Counted from the stretch's first letter, positions 19,455-34,444 are shown. The stretch: 64,000 bases of DNA from a virus (IMGVR_UViG_3300033146_002242:32001-96000), one strand, 5' to 3'. Program-made: numbers and translations. The notes: generated by a model not told the origin, from the letters alone.

Positions 19455-19467
19455 GAACATAAAAATA
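19455..19467 (+). promoter_or_regulatory. Candidate promoter GAACA-N6-TA
   Basis: GAACA TAAAAA TA upstream of queC. Confidence 0.55.
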
Positions 19468-20139: not shown

Positions 20140-20820
20140 ATGGACGATACAAGAATTTTAATTACAAATGAATATTATCCAAAAGGATTAAATGATGTGC
20201 AAGTGCAAAAACATTATAAGAAATATCAAAAAGAAATTTTATTAGAAGTACAACGAAGAAAAGTTGCTCTTGTAATCTGTCCAGATACAAATAATTTAGT
20301 TTGGTTAAGGAATATTAAAAATAAACCTATTTATTTAAAGAATAGGAGAGATTTTCAAAATATAATTCATGAAAGAGTTTTATCAATTTTTCCTGAAATT
20401 CAACAGTATGAAAAGAAATTAGTTGTTGATATTGATTGTACTAATATTAATAATGCAAAAAAAGTAGCAAAATTATTATATAATATATTTACAAAGTCTG
20501 GATATATTACTGATGTAAAAATATTTTTTACTGGACAAACATCTTTTCATTTACATTTATTTTTACCTAATAAAACAAATATTGAGAGAGGTAAAGAATT
20601 AGTTGATGGGTTAATTAGGAGAGATGCATTTGCTCCAAAATTAATGACAATCAATCAAAGAAGGCCCAAAGATGAATTCCCAAATATAGATTTTTCAACT
20701 TTTAAAGAAAGATCAATTTATATTTGTCCATATTCATTATCAAAATTTGGGTTAATTGCGGGAGAAGTAAAAATAAATGAAATAGATTCATTTAATATAC
20801 AACATTATAAAGTTAAATAG
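20140..20820 (+). CDS. Archaeo-eukaryotic primase-polymerase (LigD PolDom-like AEP)
   Basis: LVVDID (motif I), FTGQTSFHLH (motif II), IDF...CPYSL. Confidence 0.75.
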   Translation: MDDTRILITNEYYPKGLNDVQVQKHYKKYQKEILLEVQRRKVALVICPDTNNLVWLRNIKNKPIYLKNRRDFQNIIHERVLSIFPEIQQYEKKLVVDIDCTNINNAKKVAKLLYNIFTKSGYITDVKIFFTGQTSFHLHLFLPNKTNIERGKELVDGLIRRDAFAPKLMTINQRRPKDEFPNIDFSTFKERSIYICPYSLSKFGLIAGEVKINEIDSFNIQHYKVK

Positions 20821-21391
20821 TTTATTCACTAAATAAGAGTGAGGCGGGCCTCGGCTAAGCAGAATAAATATTATATATATTTGCTCACTAAATAAGTGAG
20901 ATATTGTTGTGTTGTTTGGATAAATATTATATATGTTTGCTCACTTATTTAGTGAGACTGGATTTTTCCCTATCATCAGAATATTAATTAGATAAAAACA
21001 TATTTGCTCATTAAATAAATGAGATATAACCTGGCCGTTATTTTAATTAAATATTATGTATTTGCTCACTAAATAAGTGAGAGATTATGTTCTTTTGATT
21101 TAGGTATTAAAGTATTTTGAATAATATATGTTTGCTCATTAAATAAATGAGACAGGGCGTAAGAAGGTAAAAATAAATGAAATAGATTCATTTATAATAT
21201 ACAACATTATAAAGTTAAATAGTTTGTTCACTAAATAAGTGAAATGAGATTATTTTGTTTTTTATTAGATTATTAATCAAATAAAAACATGTTTGCTTAC
21301 TAAACAAGTGAGATGGGGATAGAGAGTTTGGACGTAAATCAGGTTTTTAAAATAAAATATATGTTTGCTCATTAAATACAATAAAAATGAG
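20811..21391 (+). CRISPR. Degenerate CRISPR-like array, 9 hairpin repeats, type V (Cas12m/Cas12j-like) architecture
   Basis: Cores at 20821, 20880, 20936, 21003, 21061, 21131, 21223, 21292, 21364; consensus (TAAATATTATATATG)TTTGCTCACT-AAATA-AGTGAGA; period 56-92 nt; mostly unique spacers. Confidence 0.72.
21162..21239 (+). repeat. Direct duplication of the primase-polymerase 3' end plus first repeat (20763-20838)
   Basis: AAAAATAAATGAAATAGATTCATTT..AATATACAACATTATAAAGTTAAATAGTTT.TTCACTAAATAAG present twice with few indels. Confidence 0.9.
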
Positions 21392-21412
21392 AAAAGTAGC
21401 TAATGTAATTTG

Positions 21413-21484: not shown

Positions 21485-22015
21485 ATGAAAGCTAATATTG
21501 AAAAAGAAAAACTTTTTAAAAAGTTTATAGATAATGGAGAAATTTGGGCTGATAAATATGGTAATATTTATAAGAAAAATGGAACTTGTAAATATCATTT
21601 AAATAATACTGGTTATTATAGATTATCATATAAATCAATAACTATTTTTGTGCATAGGTTGGTTTGGATTTATTTCAAAGGATTGATATATGATGATAAG
21701 CTACAAATTAATCATATTGATGGGGATAAATTAAATAATACTTTGGAAAATTTAGAAATTGTTGATAATAAAACTAATACAAAACATGCTATACTAATGG
21801 GTTTACGAACACCCATATCAGAAAAAACAAAACAATATTTTTCTGAAAAGATAAGGGGGTGCAAAAATATAAATGCAAAATTTACACAATCCGATGTTAT
21901 TTTATATAGGTATTTATATAAAATGGGCAAAATAAATATAAAAACAATTTCTGAAAAATACGATATAACACAACGAAGTGTAAAAAATATGTTGAGTGGA
22001 AAAACATATAATTAA
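21485..22015 (+). CDS. Free-standing HNH homing endonuclease
   Basis: [37 protein letters not shown]; C-terminal NAKFT..V helical DNA-binding region. Confidence 0.9.
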
Positions 22016-22022
22016 GTTATAT

Positions 22023-22385
22023 GCCCGGATGGCGGAATAGGTAGACGCAAGGGACTTGACTCGTAAATAAATTGAGCGGCATATTTGAAAAAATATGTTT
22101 GAATCGGGTGAATTCAGGGGAACCTTCTTAATTTTATTTAGAATTAAATGGCAATCCTGAGCCAAGACATCAACGCTTTGATGGAAGGTGCAGAGACTAG
22201 ATGGTGAGGAAAGATACGTTTCTCGTAAAACATCATAAGCGCCCGACACCTAAGGATTTTATTTTAATCTATGGTGATGATATAGTCCAGACCACAAACA
22301 TTGTAAAATGGCAATGAAAATTGTAGTGGTACGAAAATCCCTCGTTCGTAAGAACGTGCCGGTTCGATTCCGGCTCCGGGCATCA
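22023..22385 (+). tRNA. trnL: tRNA-Leu(UAA), split by a group I intron (exons 22023-22057 and 22334-22382)
   Basis: GCCCGGA/TCCGGGC acceptor, D arm, AGGGA-CTT|AAAA-TCCCT anticodon arm, long variable arm, TTCGATT loop. Confidence 0.92.
22058..22333 (+). mobile_element. Group I self-splicing intron (IC3-like, no internal ORF)
   Basis: Inserted after U34; P1 CTT/GAG; core GAATTCAGGGGAACC, AATCCTGAGCC, GCAGAGACTAGA, GATATAGTCC; terminal G. Confidence 0.9.
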
Positions 22386-22880: not shown

Positions 22881-23051
22881 CTCTCAGATTGCGAAGCCTC
22901 AGAGCTCTTAGATGAGCAGCCGGAGGATAGGCTGAGAGTTGGAGTCGTCGATACAGGGAGTCCAGAGAATACTGTCAAGTCTTAAGGCTTCGGTAGCAGT
23001 ATTTGATGACGGACCCGGTGCAGTGTAGAAGCTAGTCTGGTAACAGAAGGC
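22881..23051 (+). ncRNA. Structured RNA-like element, copy 1
   Basis: 114 nt (22938-23051) identical to 24005-24118; 5' domain covaries between copies; followed by terminator-like gcctcg/cggggc-T5. Confidence 0.6.
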
Positions 23052-23123
23052 AAGGCCACCGAAAGGCGCATGGCCCATGCCTCGGATTTGCTTGCGGGGC
23101 TTTTTATCCTAAGGAGCGAAATT

Positions 23124-23945: not shown

Positions 23946-24118
23946 CCTCTGGATTGCGAAGCCTTGTACCCTTGTTTAGAGGGAGCCGAGAGGATAGGCC
24001 AGAGGTTGGAGTCGTCGATACAGGGAGTCCAGAGAATACTGTCAAGTCTTAAGGCTTCGGTAGCAGTATTTGATGACGGACCCGGTGCAGTGTAGAAGCT
24101 AGTCTGGTAACAGAAGGC
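23946..24118 (+). ncRNA. Structured RNA-like element, copy 2
   Basis: cctctgg/ccagagg stem replaces ctctcag/ctgagag of copy 1; identical 3' 114 nt. Confidence 0.6.
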
Positions 24119-24312
24119 GCGGGGCGTTTTTTAAAAAAATAATAAAATGTATAATGGATATTTATATCTAAGAAAAAATATTAAAAAATTAATAAAATTA
24201 TATAGGCAGTATAATAAAAGTTTTATGAAAAAGGATTGAAAGAAAATATAATAAACATCGGAATAAATATAATTGATTTTTTTTATTACATCAAATTAGT
24301 TGAGAGGAGATT

Positions 24313-26355
24313 ATGGAGTTTATTGATTTTGTCGGGAAAATAAAAAAGAATTTTGAATATATGAAATCAAAATCTGATATTTTATTTTATACTACAAGAG
24401 ATAGAAATAAAATATGGGAAACATATTTACAATCATTTCCAGAAGGATCAAATCCAATATATAAAGAAAGAACTGAACATGATTGTAATGCATGTAAATC
24501 ATTTATAAGACAATTTGGATCCATTGTTGTCATAGATCCATCTGATTTAAAGATGTTATCTATATGGGATATGGAAATAGGTGGTTCATATCAAGATGTT
24601 GCTGATGCAATGTCACGATATGTTAAATCACATCCTATTGAAAATATTTTTATGCATAATGAAAAAAATATGGGAATTGAATGTAATAGACAAGAAGTAG
24701 GTGGTAAAATTCTGAAATGGCATCATTTTCATTTAAAAACACCATCTAATATATTAGTCAATAAAGATGTAATAAATGAAATCAAATCAGAATCAAGAGC
24801 CAACAAAGAAGTATTATATAGAAGTTTAACTGAATTAACAATTGAATCTGCTGAAATTGTATTAGATTTAATTGAACAAAATACATTGTATCGTGGCCGT
24901 GAGCATAAAAAAGTTGTGGAACTATTTATTGAATTAAAGAAACAGTTTAATAAAGTACCAGATAATTTAAAAGATCATTGTTGTTGGCTAACATCAGTTT
25001 CATTTAAATCATTATCAAAAATTAGAAATACTGTTATAGGTACATTATTATCTGATTTATCAGAAGGAAAAGATATTGAAGATGCTGTAAAAGCATATGA
25101 ATTTAAAGTAGCTCCTTCGAATTATAAAAGACCGAAAGCTATTGTAACTAAATCAATGATTTTACAAGCTCAAAATACTCTTAAAGATTTGGGTTTATTA
25201 GAATCATTGGAAAGAAGATATGCAACAATATCAGATATATCTGTTAATAATGTATTGTTTGCAGATAGATCTGTTAAACCAGCAATGAAAGATGTGTTTG
25301 ATGAATTATTAGAACAAACACCTGAAAAAATAAAAAAATATGATAATGTTGAAAAAATTCATATTGAAAAATTTATATCTGATGTATTACCAAAAATTAA
25401 TACACTTGAATTATTTATTGATAATAAACATTTAAATAATTTAGTAAGCTTAACAACAGCTGTTAATCAGGATGCACCTTTTTTATTTAAATGGCCGAAT
25501 CATTGCGCATGGTCATATACAGGTGACGTGGCAGATTCGATCAAAGAAAAAGTAAAGCAAGCTGGTGGAAAAGTTGATGGTGTTATACGGTGTTCTTTAT
25601 CATGGTATAATACAGATGATTTAGATATACATGTAATTGAACCCAATCAAAATGAGATTTATTATTTAAATAATACTTCATTCACATCTGGAAAATTAGA
25701 TGTTGATATGAATGCCTCTGCACGAAAAGCTGTGAGAGGTGCTGTTGAAAATATTACATGGAACAACAGAAATAGAATGTTGGAAGGTAATTATGATTTG
25801 ATTATTCATAATTATAAAGTTCGTGAACGTAATATTGATGTTGGGTTTGAAGTTGAAATTGAACATAATGGACATGTATATAGTTTTAATTATCCAAAAC
25901 ATGTTAGCCATTCAAAGCCAATTAAAGTTGCAACATTTTATTATAATCCAAGAACAGATGAATTCAAATTAATATCATCCATACAATCAACTGAAAATAT
26001 AAAAGTTATAGATGAATGGAATATAAAAACAAATCATTTTCATAAAGTCCAATTATTATTGATGTCTCCCAATTTCTGGGATAATGGTAATGGATTTGGT
26101 ATTGGTAATAAACATTATTTCTTTATGTTAGAAAATTGTAAAAACCCAGATAATTGTCGGGGTTTTTATAATGAATATTTAAAAGCTGATTTAACTAAGC
26201 ATAGAAAAGTATTTGAGATTTTAGGGTCTAAAATGAAAGCTCCATATACTGACAATCAATTAAGTGGTATTGGATTTTCAGAGACACAAAAAAATAGAGT
26301 TATTGTTAAAGCGAGTGGGTCTTTCAATAGGCCATTAGAATTAATTTTCCAGTAA
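24313..26355 (+). CDS. Large hypothetical protein
   Basis: 680 aa, GAGGAG RBS; HDCNACKSF; C-terminal DLDIHVIEP..LDVD..VENITW (YfaP/DUF2135-like pattern, uncertain). Confidence 0.8.
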   Translation: MEFIDFVGKIKKNFEYMKSKSDILFYTTRDRNKIWETYLQSFPEGSNPIYKERTEHDCNACKSFIRQFGSIVVIDPSDLKMLSIWDMEIGGSYQDVADAMSRYVKSHPIENIFMHNEKNMGIECNRQEVGGKILKWHHFHLKTPSNILVNKDVINEIKSESRANKEVLYRSLTELTIESAEIVLDLIEQNTLYRGREHKKVVELFIELKKQFNKVPDNLKDHCCWLTSVSFKSLSKIRNTVIGTLLSDLSEGKDIEDAVKAYEFKVAPSNYKRPKAIVTKSMILQAQNTLKDLGLLESLERRYATISDISVNNVLFADRSVKPAMKDVFDELLEQTPEKIKKYDNVEKIHIEKFISDVLPKINTLELFIDNKHLNNLVSLTTAVNQDAPFLFKWPNHCAWSYTGDVADSIKEKVKQAGGKVDGVIRCSLSWYNTDDLDIHVIEPNQNEIYYLNNTSFTSGKLDVDMNASARKAVRGAVENITWNNRNRMLEGNYDLIIHNYKVRERNIDVGFEVEIEHNGHVYSFNYPKHVSHSKPIKVATFYYNPRTDEFKLISSIQSTENIKVIDEWNIKTNHFHKVQLLLMSPNFWDNGNGFGIGNKHYFFMLENCKNPDNCRGFYNEYLKADLTKHRKVFEILGSKMKAPYTDNQLSGIGFSETQKNRVIVKASGSFNRPLELIFQ

Positions 26356-29856: not shown

Positions 29857-30030
29857 ATGATAAATACAATTTTATTAGTAATATCTATAATTGGGTTATT
29901 GGTATTAATAGTGTTGGGTATTTTATTTATAATCGAGATAAATAAAATATTTAATCGAGGTATATCAAATGAAACAATCGAAAAAATATTAGATAGAAAA
30001 CCAATTTTTTGGATACCTCCATTTAATTAA
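29857..30030 (+). CDS. Small single-TM protein (57 aa, not in track)
   Basis: AAGGA RBS; MINTILLVISIIGLLVLIVLGILFII. Confidence 0.45.
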   Translation: MINTILLVISIIGLLVLIVLGILFIIEINKIFNRGISNETIEKILDRKPIFWIPPFN

Positions 30031-30094
30031 AAAATTTACATTTGCATATTAAGTAAATATGACGATTTATACTTTTTATTTATAAATTTAATGT

Positions 30095-30168
30095 GTGGGT
30101 GTGGCCTAGTCTGGTAAGGCACCTGATTTGGGATCAGGAAATCGGAGGTTCAAATCCTCTCACCCGCA
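30095..30168 (+). tRNA. trnP: tRNA-Pro(UGG)
   Basis: Complete cloverleaf CCTGA-TT TGG GA-TCAGG; acceptor GTGGGTG/CACCCGC. Confidence 0.9.
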
Positions 30169-30333
30169 TCAATTTTGTAATTTTTAAATTTGCACTATGA
30201 ACAATAGTGACAAATAGCAGAGGATTGTAAATGAGGAGATACAGATTGATATATATTATCATTAGTATATATTCCATAATAATTTATAAATATTACACAT
30301 TATACTAATGTGGCGGCTGGCGTTGGATTTAAT

Positions 30334-30570
30334 ATGATTATATATCGATGTGATAGATGTAATAAAAAAATGGATGAAGATGAGAATCGTAGAATTGAAG
30401 GATTTAATAAATTTTCATCTAATGATATTATGCATTTTACAATTTCAATAAAGCCAGATAATAAACATTTTTGTCATGATTGTATCAGGCTTATGGTAAT
30501 CAATGCATTAGAAGATCCCAACAATAATATATTATATGGGTGTAATACAAAATATATTAGTAATAAATAA
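30334..30570 (+). CDS. Small zinc-ribbon protein
   Basis: YRCDRC ... HFCHDC. Confidence 0.6.
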   Translation: MIIYRCDRCNKKMDEDENRRIEGFNKFSSNDIMHFTISIKPDNKHFCHDCIRLMVINALEDPNNNILYGCNTKYISNK

Positions 30571-30649
30571 ATTTATTTATGCATTACACATTTTAAATGT
30601 GACAATATAATATTGTATTATTTTTTAAAAAAAGTGAAAGGAGCTTTGT

Positions 30650-32404
30650 ATGAAGAAAGTTGTTGTGAGAAAATATAGATGTTGGGAGCCTTTGAATATG
30701 GGGCAGGATGTAATTACCCAGTTGTGGTTGCAAAATCAAATGTGGAATAAATTAGTAGAGATGGAACAAAATTTATATAAGAAGTATAGAGAAGTTATGT
30801 CTACTGATACAGCAGTAGCTGAAATTGAAGAAAAATTAACTCAAAATGATACTGCTATTAAAGCATATATGGAAGAAAGAAATGAAATAAGGAAAAAACT
30901 TAAAAAGAAGAAATGTGCTGAAACAGCATATTTTGATGAACAAATTAAAGAATTATCAGCAGAATCAAAAGAGCTTCGTAAGATAGCTCGGGAAAAAAGA
31001 AAAGAAGCAAAAGAAAAAGTTAAACCTTTACTTGATGAAATCAATCAAGAAAGAAAGGAAAGAAGAAAAAAAATATATCAAAATTCGGGGTTGTTTTGGG
31101 GTAATTATAACAGAGTCATGGCATCATTTGATATCGCTGTATCAAAATCGATGAAAACTGGCAGCACTTTACGTTTTCATCGATTTGATGGAACTGGAAT
31201 TTTTAAAAATTTCTTGTCCCCCGGCCGAACAAATGATGACATGTTAAATGGAAAGTTAAGTTACTTACATTTACAGGACATTCCTGCTGAGTCATTTAAT
31301 GATTATATCGGTAGAAATAATCCATGTAAAATGGTTCTCGGTAGTCGTAGAGAAAGATCACGAAAATATGGGCTTCTCAAATTCACGATTTATCGAGGAA
31401 AAGATGAAGAAGGAAATAGAATAAATAGAATGTTAGAAATGCCAGTGCTGCTTCACCGTCCATTGCCAGATGATGAAGATTTATTAATTAAAGAAGCCGT
31501 TGTACGGCGGGAGTGTGTATCACCCGGTGAATATAGATGGTTTTTTATATTAACATATGTTGGTGGTGAATTTCAGCCAGTTCAACATGTTAATACTGGT
31601 AGTGTTGCTGGTATTAACATGGGTTGGAAAACTGTCAATAATAATACATTGCGAATTGCTACTTTGGTGTCGGATAAAGAAACAGTACATTTCATTCTAC
31701 CAGAAAAAATTATGAAAACATATGATTATTTAAATCAATTAAAATCGGAAGTCGATAGCATGATTAACCATGCTATTGCTAGAATAAAAGAGATTATGAA
31801 AGATGATGATGAACTTCCTGAATCAATGGGAGTTTATTTAACCAGAATAACAAAGGCCAAACGGCCGCGATATGATTTATTAGAGAAAATGATGTGGGTA
31901 TGGGATAAAGAATTGTCATATAAACCAGAAGAATTTTCTGAGGCAAAGGCTCATTTTGATTATCTTAATCGTGTTTTATCTGAGATGAATAATTTGAGAG
32001 ATAAAGTCCGTGGACACCGGTTAGATTTATATCGGTGTTGGACAAAAATGATTACTCAAAAATATGAAACAATTATTGTTGATAAATTAAATTTGGCGCA
32101 ACTAAGTAAATTGGAGGCCGATGATGGCACTCCCACCAATAACTTACCAGAAGCAGCTCGTAAAAATCGAGTCATTGCATCGGTAGGTATTTTTAAAGAA
32201 TGGCTTGATAAACAGGCTTTGAAAGTGGGGTCTGTAATTATTAAGAAATCAATTAAATCATCCACAATCTGCTCAGATTGTGGCGGTAAATTGATTAGAA
32301 AAGACAGTATCATATGGGCGTGCGAAAATTGTGGTAGCGTGTTTGACCAAGATGTTAACGCGGCTACTAACTTGATACGGTCGTATCAAGAAGAAGCAGC
32401 GTGA
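30650..32404 (+). CDS. cas12m: Cas12m-like (type V-M / V-U1) effector with predicted inactive RuvC
   Basis: AAGGAG RBS; QLWLQNQMWNKLVE, long coiled coil, GLFWGNYN, LRFHRFDGTG, PVLLHRPLP, RuvC-I AGINMGW (D to N), GHRLDLYR, RuvC-II IIVD (E to D), C-terminal CSDCG..CENCGSVFDQDVNAATNL. Confidence 0.8.
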   Translation: MKKVVVRKYRCWEPLNMGQDVITQLWLQNQMWNKLVEMEQNLYKKYREVMSTDTAVAEIEEKLTQNDTAIKAYMEERNEIRKKLKKKKCAETAYFDEQIKELSAESKELRKIAREKRKEAKEKVKPLLDEINQERKERRKKIYQNSGLFWGNYNRVMASFDIAVSKSMKTGSTLRFHRFDGTGIFKNFLSPGRTNDDMLNGKLSYLHLQDIPAESFNDYIGRNNPCKMVLGSRRERSRKYGLLKFTIYRGKDEEGNRINRMLEMPVLLHRPLPDDEDLLIKEAVVRRECVSPGEYRWFFILTYVGGEFQPVQHVNTGSVAGINMGWKTVNNNTLRIATLVSDKETVHFILPEKIMKTYDYLNQLKSEVDSMINHAIARIKEIMKDDDELPESMGVYLTRITKAKRPRYDLLEKMMWVWDKELSYKPEEFSEAKAHFDYLNRVLSEMNNLRDKVRGHRLDLYRCWTKMITQKYETIIVDKLNLAQLSKLEADDGTPTNNLPEAARKNRVIASVGIFKEWLDKQALKVGSVIIKKSIKSSTICSDCGGKLIRKDSIIWACENCGSVFDQDVNAATNLIRSYQEEAA

Positions 32405-32408
32405 ATAT

Positions 32409-32453
32409 ATTCCCTGACATGAGAATATTTCAAAAATTCTCATGTCAGGGAAT
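32409..32453. terminator. Perfect 18 bp hairpin after cas12m-like gene
   Basis: attccctgacatgagaat/attctcatgtcagggaat followed by T-rich tract. Confidence 0.65.
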
Positions 32454-32554
32454 CATTTTTACACGGTAAATACATACAAATCGTGGCAACTTATCAGGTC
32501 AAATATTATTATAATATTTGAATTTTTGAATTTACACATTTAATTAAATGTGAT

Positions 32555-32890
32555 ATGTCCTGGGAAGTCAATTATATGGAAACTTGTAATAAAGAATGTG
32601 ATTTATACCCCATGACAATGGGGTGCATAGATTGTAAACATTATGATAATGATTTAGCTGCAAAAAATACTATTCAAAAATTTATAGATTCATATAAAGG
32701 TGAAATAAATGGTATTCATATGATTATTGCAGCATGTGATTATATGGAATGGAGTTTAGCAATCCCAAAAGAAGAACATATAAATGAAAATGATAATATA
32801 AAAGGTTTGATTATTGGAGAAGAAAATTACGTATCATCTATTTTAGATAAAATAGATGGTGTTAAATTTAACCCAACAAATAAAAATTAA
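32555..32890 (+). CDS. Hypothetical protein
   Basis: 111 aa; N-terminal Cys cluster. Confidence 0.6.
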   Translation: MSWEVNYMETCNKECDLYPMTMGCIDCKHYDNDLAAKNTIQKFIDSYKGEINGIHMIIAACDYMEWSLAIPKEEHINENDNIKGLIIGEENYVSSILDKIDGVKFNPTNKN

Positions 32891-33170
32891 ATCTAAAAAA
32901 TCCTATATCAGAAAAAACATTTTTAATAGGTAAAATATGTGGAATTAAAAAACCTGTTATAACAGGTGAATCATTTATTTTAATGATTGAACATAAATCA
33001 CATAAATCAGTTGTGTGGAATATTCCAGCAACTGATGTTGAATTAATATAATTATTGTCCAATATAAAATTGGGACCATACATACAGCAGCTATTATAAC
33101 AATATAATCATTTTATTATAAATTATCCAATATTATAATTGGGTCAACGATACAAATAACATTTATTAAA

Positions 33171-33244
33171 TGGGGTGTCGTTCAATGGTAGGACAACAGC
33201 CTTTGGAGCTGTTTATTGGGGTTCGAATCCCTACACCCCAGCCA
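33171..33244 (+). tRNA. trnQ: tRNA-Gln(UUG)
   Basis: U1:A72, G73, CCA encoded; ACAGC-CT TTG GA-GCTGT. Confidence 0.93.
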
Positions 33245-33387
33245 TTTGATATTTACTCTATATAATATATAATAATGGGAAATTAATATTTAAAATATTG
33301 ATTAAATAATGGAATTTACCAATTAAATTGTTTTAATAACAATTACTTTTTATATATATTGATAAATAAATAGGGTAATTTGTTTAA

Positions 33388-33463
33388 TCCTCGGTAGTTC
33401 AGTTGGCAGAACAAGTGGCTGTTAACCACTATGTCGCAGGTTCGAGTCCTGCCCGGGGAGCCA
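33388..33463 (+). tRNA. trnN: tRNA-Asn(GUU)
   Basis: TCCTCGG acceptor, AGTGG-CT GTT AA-CCACT, CCA encoded. Confidence 0.95.
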
Positions 33464-33971
33464 TTTTTTAGATGAAAGGAATATATGGATTTTATAACTT
33501 GGTGGTTTAATCATCATTATGTAGTATCTACTTTATTAACACCTTTTATGACACTAGCTTGGGTATTTTATAAAGGGCTAGTAATAAGAGGTATATTTAC
33601 AGTTATTTGGATTATAATTGAGCTTATTATTATGACAGTCGGATCGTCATAGGCGAATCACATCCGGTATTGGGGTAATTTCAAAATTAAGAAACTCTCT
33701 GATATACGATGGAAAAAGAAACGGTGTAATTCCGTACCCGACTTTTAAAATCTCATCAACGGACACATCATTAGTATTTTCAGAATAACAAATATTGATA
33801 AAAATTCGAAAACCCCGATATATGTAGAAGAATTTGAGTTTAGCAGGGATGAATGGAATAGTGAACCACCAGAATGCTTACAAAAAGCTATAGTTGCATG
33901 TAAAAGTAAAACACAGTGTTATCATTGCAGAACTGTGTATTATGCAGCTGAAAAAAAGGAGGATTGTGTTA

Positions 33972-34232
33972 ATGCATGATTCACATGAGATTTATGAATT
34001 TATATATAATGGATTTTGTGTTGAGCGATTGAATAAAAATAAAACAGTATATACAGCTAAATTTAAAAAATGGACCCGTGATCCGGGTATTGGAATTTTT
34101 GAATGTTCTGATGGAAAAAATCGGTATATTCCAACCTGTGCAATAAAAGATTTTGATACACTACATATACATCCTAAACAAGATGTAAACGTAAAAGAAA
34201 AACTTTTGATGTGCAACTCTGCTACATCATAA
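33972..34232 (+). CDS. Hypothetical protein
   Basis: AAGGAGG RBS; ATG at 33972. Confidence 0.6.
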   Translation: MHDSHEIYEFIYNGFCVERLNKNKTVYTAKFKKWTRDPGIGIFECSDGKNRYIPTCAIKDFDTLHIHPKQDVNVKEKLLMCNSATS

Positions 34233-34241
34233 GTGAAATTA

Positions 34242-34318
34242 GGGCCCTTAGCTCAGTTGGTTAGAGCTCCCGGCTCATAACCGGGCGGTCCGGGGTTCGA
34301 ATCCCTGAGGGCCCACCA
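34242..34318 (+). tRNA. trnI: tRNA with CAU anticodon, Ile2-like (lysidine) rather than Met
   Basis: GGGCCCT acceptor, GGCTCATAACC loop, C4:G69/C5:G68 pairs typical of TilS substrates, CCA encoded. Confidence 0.85.
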
Positions 34319-34444
34319 TGTAAAAAATTAGTTAAATTTACGCAATACAATGTTGCGGCATTTTATTATTGTTTTTAAATTAAAAATAAATATGGTATTT
34401 TCAGTATGGTTTTTTATGTAACTTAAATAAAAAAGGAGATCTAT

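What the first reader, a model, noticed from the sequence alone, without database searches (positions are those of the whole stretch)
20811..21391. Orphan degenerate type V-like array 9 kb from its probable effector
Seen: nine units with an AT-rich 5' part and a 3' hairpin TTG-CTCACT-AAATA-AGTGAG-A(C/T/G), separated by mostly unique spacers. Several spacers are GC-rich for this genome (GCGGGCCTCGGCTAAGC, ACAGGGCGTAAGAAGG, GGGGATAGAGAGTTTGGACG). Established: a ~36 nt repeat whose 6 bp stem starts CT and ends AG-AC is the architecture I recall for Cas12m and Cas12j repeats. The repeats are too divergent for standard CRISPR finders, and some spacers are only about 20 nt. Inference: an old, non-acquiring guide set kept for regulation rather than immunity, working in trans with the 30650 gene.
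Basis: partly seen in the sequence, partly recalled or inferred. Interest (0 to 1): 0.85.

Follow-up and report, generated by a model that had tools for sequence, protein, structure and literature searches.

The report
Phage Cas12m guide array, structure-conserved repeats
A giant phage that encodes its own cutting-dead CRISPR protein (Cas12m) also carries, 9 kb away, nine diverged copies of that protein's RNA handle, each followed by a different short sequence. This is most likely a fixed set of guide RNAs kept without any spacer-acquisition machinery.

Summary
Nine co-oriented hairpin units (TTTG, 6-bp stem, loop, stem, A-N) lie at 20821-21393 and occur nowhere else in the 118-kb record. All 54 stem pairs are intact, through three compensated changes and two plus-strand G-U pairs.

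The ORF at 30650-32404 is a true Cas12m (PDB 23vw, E 2.6e-49). It has an N-D-D RuvC and the conserved His-Arg pair that reads the crRNA handle.

The closest homologues (45-52% identity) sit beside regular mini-arrays. Their repeats share one layout: G, stem C-N-C-N-N-T, loop, stem, AC. One of those stems differs from ours by a single base pair.

A descriptor of that layout hits 12 plus-strand sites in this genome: six in the array and six around cas12m and the tRNAs. Shuffles give 1.4.

Spacer lengths are 17-37 nt, and the shortest equal the published Cas12m guide length.

Best reading (about 0.7): a non-acquiring, drifted type V-M guide array acting in trans.

No targets, no RNA evidence and no profile-level repeat homology were found, so 'regulation rather than immunity' is untested.

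This scan has noted similar phage Cas12m arrays on other DNA. The only published phage Cas12m I found (a 2026 preprint) has a regular, adjacent array.

The parts
20821..20845 (+). Unit u1: TTTA-TTCACT-AAATAAG-AGTGAG-GC, starting 1 nt after the stop codon of the PrimPol-like gene. One G-U pair; A...G flanks instead of G...A.
   Evidence: CM R1 E 0.07
20880..20902 (+). Unit u2: TTTG-CTCACT-AAATA-AGTGAG-AT, followed by a 17-nt spacer.
   Evidence: E 1e-8
20936..20958 (+). Unit u3: same stem with an inverted loop (TATTT), ending AC. The hairpin is the exact reverse complement of u2.
   Evidence: (I8)
21003..21025 (+). Unit u4: stem CTCATT/AATGAG (compensated change), ending AT.
21061..21083 (+). 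Unit u5: stem CTCACT/AGTGAG, ending AG, followed by a spacer of about 37 nt.
21131..21153 (+). Unit u6: stem CTCATT/AATGAG, ending AC. Its spacer AGGGCGTAAGAAGG runs into the duplicated gene end.
21167..21239 (+). Near-identical, about 71-bp duplicate of the PrimPol-like gene's 3' end plus the first half of a hairpin (copy of 20767-20837). It forms the 5' part of u7.
   Evidence: (D4 98%, D5 94%)
21223..21245 (+). Unit u7: stem TTCACT/AGTGAA (compensated change), ending AT.
21292..21314 (+). Unit u8: stem CTTACT/AGTGAG (G-U on the + strand), loop AAACA, ending AT, followed by a spacer of about 37 nt.
21364..21393 (+). Unit u9: stem CTCATT/AATGAG with a 12-nt loop, ending AA.
   Evidence: CM R1 E 3e-4
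30650..32404 (+). cas12m gene (584 aa), the probable effector. RuvC residues are N323/D478/D568. The H269-R270 pair and the zinc ribbon are conserved.
   Evidence: PDB 23vw E 2.6e-49, 23vu 1.7e-27, 8hio 4e-19; PF07282
30041..30063 (+). Solitary handle s0: TTTG-CATATT-AAGTA-AATATG-AC, 30 nt before tRNA-Pro.
   Evidence: CM R1 E 0.013
30189..30211 (+). Solitary handle s1: TTTG-CACTAT-GAACA-ATAGTG-AC, about 20 nt after tRNA-Pro.
30292..30314 (+). Solitary handle s2: ATTA-CACATT-ATACT-AATGTG-GC, just upstream of a small ORF.
30583..30603 (+). Solitary handle s3: ATTA-CACATT-TTA-AATGTG-AC, 46 nt before the cas12m start codon. The terminal repeat occupies the same position in L017 and L018.
32458..32487 (+). 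Solitary handle s4a downstream of cas12m: TTTA-CACGGT-12 nt-ATCGTG-GC.
32531..32554 (+). Solitary handle s4: TTTA-CACATT-TAATTA-AATGTG-AT, ending directly at the ATG of ORF 32555-32890.
33054..33145 (+). Two further handle-like hairpins, s5 (TCCAAT/ATTGGG-AC) and s6 (TCCAAT/ATTGGG-TC). s6 ends 25 nt before tRNA-Gln.
34337..34359 (+). Solitary handle s7: TTTA-CGCAAT-ACAAT-GTTGCG-GC, 20 nt after tRNA-Met. Its 5' stem arm (CGCAAT) is the same as in the L019 repeat; the 3' arm gives one G-U pair.

Best explanation
The nine units are a drifted type V-M (Cas12m) CRISPR-like guide array with no adaptation module. The likely mechanism has four steps, all inferred. (1) The + strand is transcribed, most likely by read-through from the queC/PrimPol-like operon; no promoter motif of its own was found in the array. 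(2) The phage Cas12m, encoded 9.26 kb downstream, recognises each handle: a G, a 6-bp stem C-N-C-A-Y-T, an A-rich loop, the return stem, then A and one more base. (3) Cas12m cuts the precursor upstream of the handle. (4) It uses the next ~17 nt as a guide for PAM-dependent DNA binding without cleavage, because the RuvC triad is N-D-D. With no acquisition machinery to renew and homogenise the repeats, they have diverged by point mutation and segmental duplication. Selection has acted only on what the protein reads, which would explain the intact stems with compensated changes, the irregular period and the shortest spacers of 17-18 nt. Shown here: the anatomy, the covariation, the identity of the effector, the handle layout in relatives, and the genomic association of this hairpin class with cas12m. 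Inferred: transcription, processing, binding and target silencing. The targets are unknown.
For: 1. Effector. The 584-aa ORF matches solved Cas12m structures over its full length (23vw E 2.6e-49). The clade alignment keeps H269/R270; in Cas12m2 the conserved His269/Arg270 pair reads C(-1) and stacks on G(-23) (PMC10442227). The RuvC N-D-D triad is a known nuclease-dead Cas12m configuration (PMC11013384; preprint 10.64898/2026.03.26.714355).
2. Handle layout. Cas12m2 crRNA has a G(-23):A(-2) pair, a 6-bp helix at -22..-17 with -8..-3, and C(-1) abutting the guide (PMC10442227). Ms, Tf and Un crRNAs end GCUCAG...CUGAGAC. Our units read G-CUCACU-AAAUA-AGUGAG-A-N.
3. Relatives. Homologues at 45-52% identity lie beside mini-arrays with repeat stems CGCGAT (L017, 7 copies on both sides of the gene), CGCTCT (L018), CGCAAT (L019) and CGCACT (L022), all as G...AC. 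CGCACT differs from our CTCACT by one base pair.
4. Association. The descriptor [G/A]-CNCNNT-loop-paired-[A/G] gives 12 + strand hits in 118 kb: 6 in the array and 6 at 30193-34341, of which 5 lie within about 460 nt of the cas12m gene ends. There is 1 hit on the - strand. Shuffles give 1.44 +/- 1.2 for both strands.
5. Selection on an RNA-level hairpin. All stem cells pair, with compensated changes, and G-U pairs occur only on the + strand.
6. Spacer lengths of 17-37 nt have a floor equal to the 17-nt Cas12m heteroduplex or guide (PMC10442227; preprint above). The guides are GC-enriched.
7. No Cas1 in the record. A relative with the same gene order (L016) lacks the array, so it is an accessory insertion.
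Against: - A covariance model built from the L017/L018 repeats does not detect the array units (best hit E 6, on s1), so there is no statistical sequence homology of the repeats.
- The period is irregular (56-92 nt).
- The 5' half of the 'repeat' is low-complexity AT.
- Position -1 is C in only 3 of 9 units.
- The 5-nt loop is shorter than the 7-11 nt loops of known Cas12m repeats, so the pseudoknot is doubtful. It has one covarying pair and 89% of cells paired.
- u3 has an inverted loop.
- No protospacer was found. There was nothing within 3 mismatches in the 118 kb. IMG/VR exact scans gave 0, 0 and 1 hit, the last within chance.
- The array is not adjacent to the effector.
- Several solitary handles sit right before genes or tRNAs, which also fits a 5'-UTR or processing role.
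Confidence: 0.7

Rival explanations
1. The hairpins are Cas12m handles that act as protein-binding or processing sites in phage transcripts, not as DNA-targeting guides. They would sit in mRNA and tRNA precursor 5' regions, or the array would act as a sponge or titration site for Cas12m. The sequence after each handle would then not be selected as a guide.
For: The solitary handles lie directly before gene starts: s4 ends at an ATG, s3 is 46 nt before cas12m, and s0 and s6 are 25-30 nt before tRNAs. No targets were found for any guide. Position -1 is degenerate in the array. Some spacers are AT-rich and resemble each other. Unchecked notes of this scan report the same pattern in other Cas12m phages.
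Against: The array units are followed by non-coding, GC-enriched, mostly unique segments of at least 17 nt, as expected for guides. Relatives carry ordinary repeat-spacer arrays. No RNA-only role of Cas12m has been published.
Confidence: 0.15
2. The units are tandem phage promoters or 5'-hairpin transcription units, or hairpin-type polymerase recognition sites, unrelated to Cas12m.
For: Each hairpin is preceded by an AT-rich TATAT-type leader. The AR9 virion-polymerase promoter is AAATATATATTAT-N6-G (PMC5312081), and u5 reads AAATATTAT-N6-G. Solitary hairpins precede genes.
Against: The leader motif is not dispersed upstream of other operons. Sigma-70-like sites are not enriched (6 against 8.5 expected). 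No AACA-N6-TR motif lies on the + strand inside the array. The hairpin class is confined to the array and the cas12m/tRNA region and carries the stem signature of Cas12m repeats.
Confidence: 0.07
3. The units are DNA-level elements: iterons or single-strand initiation hairpins of a replication origin next to the PrimPol-like gene, or debris from homing-endonuclease-driven rearrangement that is decaying without function.
For: The units are adjacent to a weakly PrimPol-like gene. The region is AT-rich. It holds a 71-bp duplication and an exact hairpin inversion, both suggesting DNA-level hairpin or recombination events. An HNH gene lies next to it.
Against: Compensated stem changes with G-U only on the + strand, and no broken pair in 54, argue for selection on a + strand hairpin. 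The relative L016 keeps the PrimPol-like gene without any such units. The stem signature and flanks match Cas12m handles.
Confidence: 0.08

Closest known systems
Type V-M CRISPR-Cas12m (MmCas12m2, GoCas12m, MsCas12m, PmCas12m; PMC10442227, PMC11013384, preprint 10.64898/2026.03.26.714355)
   Same: The effector is homologous over its full length and has a nuclease-dead N-D-D RuvC. The handle has a G, a 6-bp stem and A-C abutting a ~17-nt guide. There is no tracrRNA-like requirement and no cas1/cas2 nearby.
   Different: The repeats are not near-identical and the period is irregular (56-92 nt). The loop is 5 nt, against 7-11 nt. Position -1 is often U. The array is 9.26 kb from the gene, in a 26% GC jumbo-phage genome. 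No profile-level repeat homology was found.
Mini-arrays beside the closest Cas12m homologues (L017, L018, L019, L022; metagenomic contigs fetched here)
   Same: Same protein clade (45-52% identity, all N at RuvC-I). Same handle signature G-CNCNNT...-AC. A terminal repeat sits 26-52 nt before the cas12m start, as s3 does here. L017 has repeats on both sides of the gene.
   Different: Those repeats are nearly identical within each array, 32 nt long with 34-36-nt spacers, and GC-rich. Their terminal repeats decay without compensation.
MV-1 myxophage type V-M locus (preprint 10.64898/2026.09.14.751636, which claims the first phage Cas12m)
   Same: A phage-encoded Cas12m with no adaptation genes and no identified protospacers.
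   Different: MV-1 has a D-E-D RuvC and one consensus repeat in a regular adjacent array with eight spacers. Here the RuvC is N-D-D, the repeats conserve structure only, the array is distant and solitary handles are present.
Virus-borne mini-CRISPR arrays, solitary repeat units and RNA anti-CRISPRs (Faure 2019; Medvedeva 2019; Camara-Wilpert 2023; cited from my own knowledge) and crRNA-like regulatory repeats (bioRxiv 10.1101/2023.03.03.530964)
   Same: Repeat-like units without adaptation genes on a mobile element, with single repeat-like elements near cas genes.
   Different: Those elements usually mimic a host system's repeats and rely on host Cas proteins. Here the cognate effector is encoded by the phage itself, and no host array with this repeat was found.

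Membership tests
Type V-M CRISPR-Cas12m array | A Cas12m effector encoded in the same genome | tested here: met
   PDB 23vw E 2.6e-49, full length; one copy in 118 kb
Type V-M CRISPR-Cas12m array | Repeat 3' end forms G + 6-bp helix + A-C directly abutting the spacer | tested here: met
   G and A flank the stem in 8 of 9 units, and A...G in u1. C at -1 in only 3 of 9 units, U in 4. Layout taken from PMC10442227.
Type V-M CRISPR-Cas12m array | Pseudoknot between the repeat 5' segment and the hairpin loop | tested here: inconclusive
   U(A/G)UUU can pair with AAA(U/C)A: 89% of cells paired and one A-U/G-U/G-C covarying pair. The loop is only 5 nt and the sequence is AT-rich. u3 cannot form it.
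Type V-M CRISPR-Cas12m array | Near-identical direct repeats at a regular period | tested here: not met
   Spacing 56-92 nt; 82% mean column identity over 39 nt. TRF sees only a fragment.
Type V-M CRISPR-Cas12m array | Sequence homology of the repeat to repeats of related Cas12m systems | tested here: not met
   Covariance model R2 from L017/L018 repeats gives no significant hit in the window. Only the stem signature C1-C3-T6 and the flanks are shared.
Type V-M CRISPR-Cas12m array | Array adjacent to the effector gene | tested here: not met
   The array is 9.26 kb upstream. Six solitary handles of the same class do flank cas12m and nearby tRNAs.
Type V-M CRISPR-Cas12m array | Spacers matching foreign or host DNA next to a 5' TTN/YTN PAM | tested here: inconclusive
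   No match in the 118 kb. IMG/VR exact scans gave 0, 0 and 1 hit; the one hit has TTG upstream but is within chance. The host is unknown and the genome is about 38% complete.
Type V-M CRISPR-Cas12m array | Transcription and Cas12m-dependent processing into ~50-nt crRNAs | not testable with these tools
   No sequencing run was listed for this DNA.
Tandem phage promoters (AR9/phiKZ-type virion-polymerase promoters) | An extended AT-rich consensus at fixed distance from a G start, recurring upstream of early genes across the genome | tested here: not met
   The leader motifs are essentially confined to the array. The distance to G varies between 6 and 8 nt.

The most novel reading that the evidence does not exclude
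The phage runs Cas12m as a hard-wired regulator. A fixed set of guides is maintained only by selection on RNA structure. Single handles are also built into its own tRNA and mRNA precursors, including the cas12m 5' leader. Host tRNA processing and Cas12m together would then release the guides, and Cas12m would control phage or host gene expression rather than provide adaptive immunity.
Probability: 0.3. Interest if true: 0.8.

Novelty: new variant of a known kind. Interest (0 to 1): 0.62.

Why it matters
Published Cas12m systems are bacterial, with uniform repeats next to the gene. The only phage case I found in the literature (a 2026 preprint) has a regular array. This locus differs in two ways that matter.

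First, every stem is kept by compensated change while the sequence drifts. That gives a natural mutational map of what Cas12m needs from its handle: the G...A closure, C1, C3 and T6 of the stem, and a guide of at least 17 nt. It also explains why CRISPR finders miss such arrays.

Second, it points to CRISPR effectors being kept by large phages as fixed RNA-guided DNA binders, possibly for gene control. This could be tested directly with a small protein of interest for CRISPRi and base-editing tools.

Tried and rejected
- Repeat searches in public collections. IMG/VR gave 0 hits. JGI metagenomes gave 2 hits, both antisense inside one ORF and therefore chance. The species genomes gave 6 single, non-arrayed hits.
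- Relatives of the upstream PrimPol-like gene. None in IMG/VR. One ENA contig (L016) has no array.
- Cas12m relatives in IMG/VR. Only one weak hit.
- Sequencing runs. None was listed and no RNA holder was listed.
- Spacer targets. Nothing in the 118-kb record with up to 3 mismatches in 18 nt or with 12-nt seeds. blastn of the array against phages and plasmids gave only AT-rich noise. Exact IMG/VR scans for u8, u1 and u4 gave 0, 0 and 1; the u4 hit in L023 matches exactly 17 nt, has TTG upstream, lies between convergent genes, and is within chance expectation.
- Host inference.
- Covariance model from relatives' repeats. No significant hit on the array.
- Promoter and terminator scans. Sigma-70-like sites are not enriched. 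Three hairpins were flagged as terminator-like only because of T-rich spacers. AACA-N6-TR is too degenerate to be enriched (158 against 141) and is absent on the + strand inside the array.
- Rfam. No family hit in the array.

Full report
THE OBSERVATION

Between the stop codon of a weakly PrimPol-like gene (20140-20820) and a free-standing HNH endonuclease gene (21485-22015) lie nine co-oriented units. Each has an AT-rich leader, then TTTG, a 6-bp stem, an A-rich loop, the return stem, an A and one more base.

The degenerate pattern for the hairpin occurs 7 times against 0.11 expected. All matches are on the + strand and all are here, in the window and in the whole 118-kb virus record. A covariance model built from seven units recovers the two irregular ones (u9 with a 12-nt loop, E 3e-4; u1, E 0.07). 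It also finds one further unit at 30025-30063 (E 0.013) and nothing else in the genome.

All stem positions pair. The stems are CTCACT/AGTGAG, CTCATT/AATGAG, TTCACT/AGTGAA and CTTACT/AGTGAG. That makes two positions with changes on both sides, plus G-U pairs that exist only if the + strand is read. The u3 hairpin is the exact reverse complement of u2. In an RNA fold most hairpins survive (z = -3.6), and u2 and u3 can also pair with each other.

Spacing is irregular at 56-92 nt. The quoted GC-rich spacers are present. The 17 nt after the handles average 0.38 GC against a 0.26 background (P about 0.01).

THE PROPOSED EFFECTOR

The 584-aa ORF at 30650-32404 matches solved Cas12m structures over its full length: 23vw E 2.6e-49, UnCas12m4a 1.7e-27, Cas12m2 4e-19. 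Pfam sees only the TnpB-type zinc-ribbon domain.

In an alignment with its relatives the RuvC positions read N323, D478 and D568. This is one of the natural nuclease-dead triads described for Cas12m (PMC11013384; PmCas12m in preprint 10.64898/2026.03.26.714355). The His-Arg pair in the LHRPLP motif is invariant. In Cas12m2 the conserved His269/Arg270 read C(-1) and stack on G(-23) of the crRNA (PMC10442227).

The record holds one cas12m copy and no Cas1. It is only about 38% complete.

DOES THE HAIRPIN LOOK LIKE A CAS12M HANDLE?

The published Cas12m2 crRNA has a G(-23):A(-2) pair closing a 6-bp helix (-22..-17 with -8..-3), then C(-1) and the guide, of which 17 nt pair with DNA (PMC10442227). 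The crRNAs used for Ms, Tf and Un Cas12m end GCUCAG...CUGAGAC (PMC11013384 Table S5). Our units read G-CUCACU-AAAUA-AGUGAG-A-N.

More telling are the nearest homologues, at 45-52% identity, which lie beside ordinary mini-arrays:
- L017 has seven repeats (GTTACACCCTG-CGCGAT-GGTGCGA-ATCGCG-AC), four upstream and three downstream of the gene.
- L018 has three upstream repeats (stem CGCTCT).
- L019 and L022 break off inside a downstream repeat (stems CGCAAT and CGCACT).

All share G, a stem C-N-C-N-N-T, a loop, the return stem and AC. CGCACT differs from our CTCACT by one base pair.

A descriptor of that layout finds 12 sites on the + strand of this genome. Six are in the array and six lie at 30193-34341; five of those are within about 460 nt of the cas12m gene ends. 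There is one hit on the - strand, in a tRNA. Shuffles give 1.44 +/- 1.2 on both strands.

One of these, s3, sits 46 nt before the cas12m start. This is the same place as the terminal repeat in L017 (26 nt) and L018 (52 nt). The hairpin class is therefore tied to cas12m by position as well as by shape.

WHAT DOES NOT FIT AN ORDINARY CRISPR ARRAY

- The repeats are not uniform and the period is irregular.
- The 5' half of the repeat is low-complexity AT.
- Position -1 is C in only three units.
- The loop is 5 nt against 7-11 nt in known repeats. This makes the Cas12m-type pseudoknot uncertain: the pairing U(A/G)UUU with AAA(U/C)A is possible and shows one covarying pair, but that is weak evidence in AT-rich sequence.
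- A covariance model built from the L017/L018 repeats does not detect the units. I therefore claim shared layout and stem signature, not statistical homology.

HISTORY OF THE ARRAY

A related contig with the same gene order (queC, a small gene, the PrimPol-like gene at 68% identity, tRNA-Leu) has no array, no HNH gene and an intronless tRNA-Leu. The array is therefore an accessory insertion in a variable region.

Inside the array, the gene's last 71 bp plus the first half of a hairpin is duplicated almost exactly (20767-20837 = 21167-21239). Some leader and spacer tails are also related, such as the u3 spacer with u4 against the u7 spacer with u8. This points to growth by recombination between units rather than by Cas1-type acquisition.

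Spacer lengths run from 17-18 nt (u2, u1) to about 37 nt. The floor equals the published Cas12m guide length, as expected if deletions were tolerated only down to the functional guide.

TARGETS AND EXPRESSION

No guide matches the available 118 kb. Scans of IMG/VR and of the phage and plasmid collections gave nothing above chance. No sequencing run was listed. The host is unknown; the polymerase is only 24-28% identical to cultured phages.

No AACA-N6-TR motif lies on the + strand within the array. One lies at 19456, before queC, so read-through transcription is the simplest guess. It remains an inference.

VERDICT

The most likely reading (about 0.7) is a non-acquiring, drifted type V-M guide array serving the phage's own nuclease-dead Cas12m in trans.

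The solitary handles right before gene starts and tRNAs, including the cas12m leader, make this credible. Promoter and DNA-level readings are less likely, for the reasons listed under the rivals.

Whether the system serves regulation or inter-element conflict is open.

Unchecked notes of this scan report similar phage Cas12m arrays with all-different repeats, and solitary handles, on other genomes. I did not test those, and they do not count as evidence here. In the published literature I found only one phage Cas12m, with a regular array (preprint 10.64898/2026.09.14.751636). I therefore rate this a new variant of a known kind.

Noticed in passing
window 22023-22385: tRNA-Leu(UAA) is interrupted after U34 by a 252-nt group I intron (Rfam RF00028, 76.9 bits, 22055-22306). 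ARAGORN misses the tRNA. The free-standing HNH gene (21485-22015) ends 8 nt before it. The relative L016 has the same tRNA without an intron and without the HNH gene.
   Followed up: partly
window 22885-23065 and 23955-24125: Two copies of a GC-rich element of about 170 nt, probably structured, lie between the tRNA-Leu and the 680-aa gene. They share a long identical core. No Rfam family matches at E up to 1.
   Followed up: no
window 30041-30211 and 33054-33244, 34242-34359: Cas12m-type handles are interleaved with tRNA genes. s0 ends 30 nt before tRNA-Pro and s1 starts about 20 nt after it. s6 ends 25 nt before tRNA-Gln and s7 starts 20 nt after tRNA-Met. RNase P or 3' tRNA processing could release guide-like RNAs.
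   Followed up: partly
window 32405-32450: An 18-bp perfect hairpin lies directly after the cas12m stop codon, followed by two handle-like hairpins (s4a, s4). s4 ends at the ATG of ORF 32555-32890, which has no visible ribosome-binding site.
   Followed up: no
window 24313-26355: This 680-aa protein matches PHROG 1735 end to end (E 2.7e-254). It is about 47% identical to a protein of Ackermannviridae-type phages that some records annotate as a DNA-directed RNA polymerase. Pfam finds nothing.
   Followed up: no
L017:1-2500: In a 45%-identical Cas12m locus on a phage-like contig, arrays flank the gene on both sides. The last upstream repeat-spacer unit is a 97% duplicate of the one before it, and the terminal repeats carry uncompensated stem mismatches.
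   Followed up: partly
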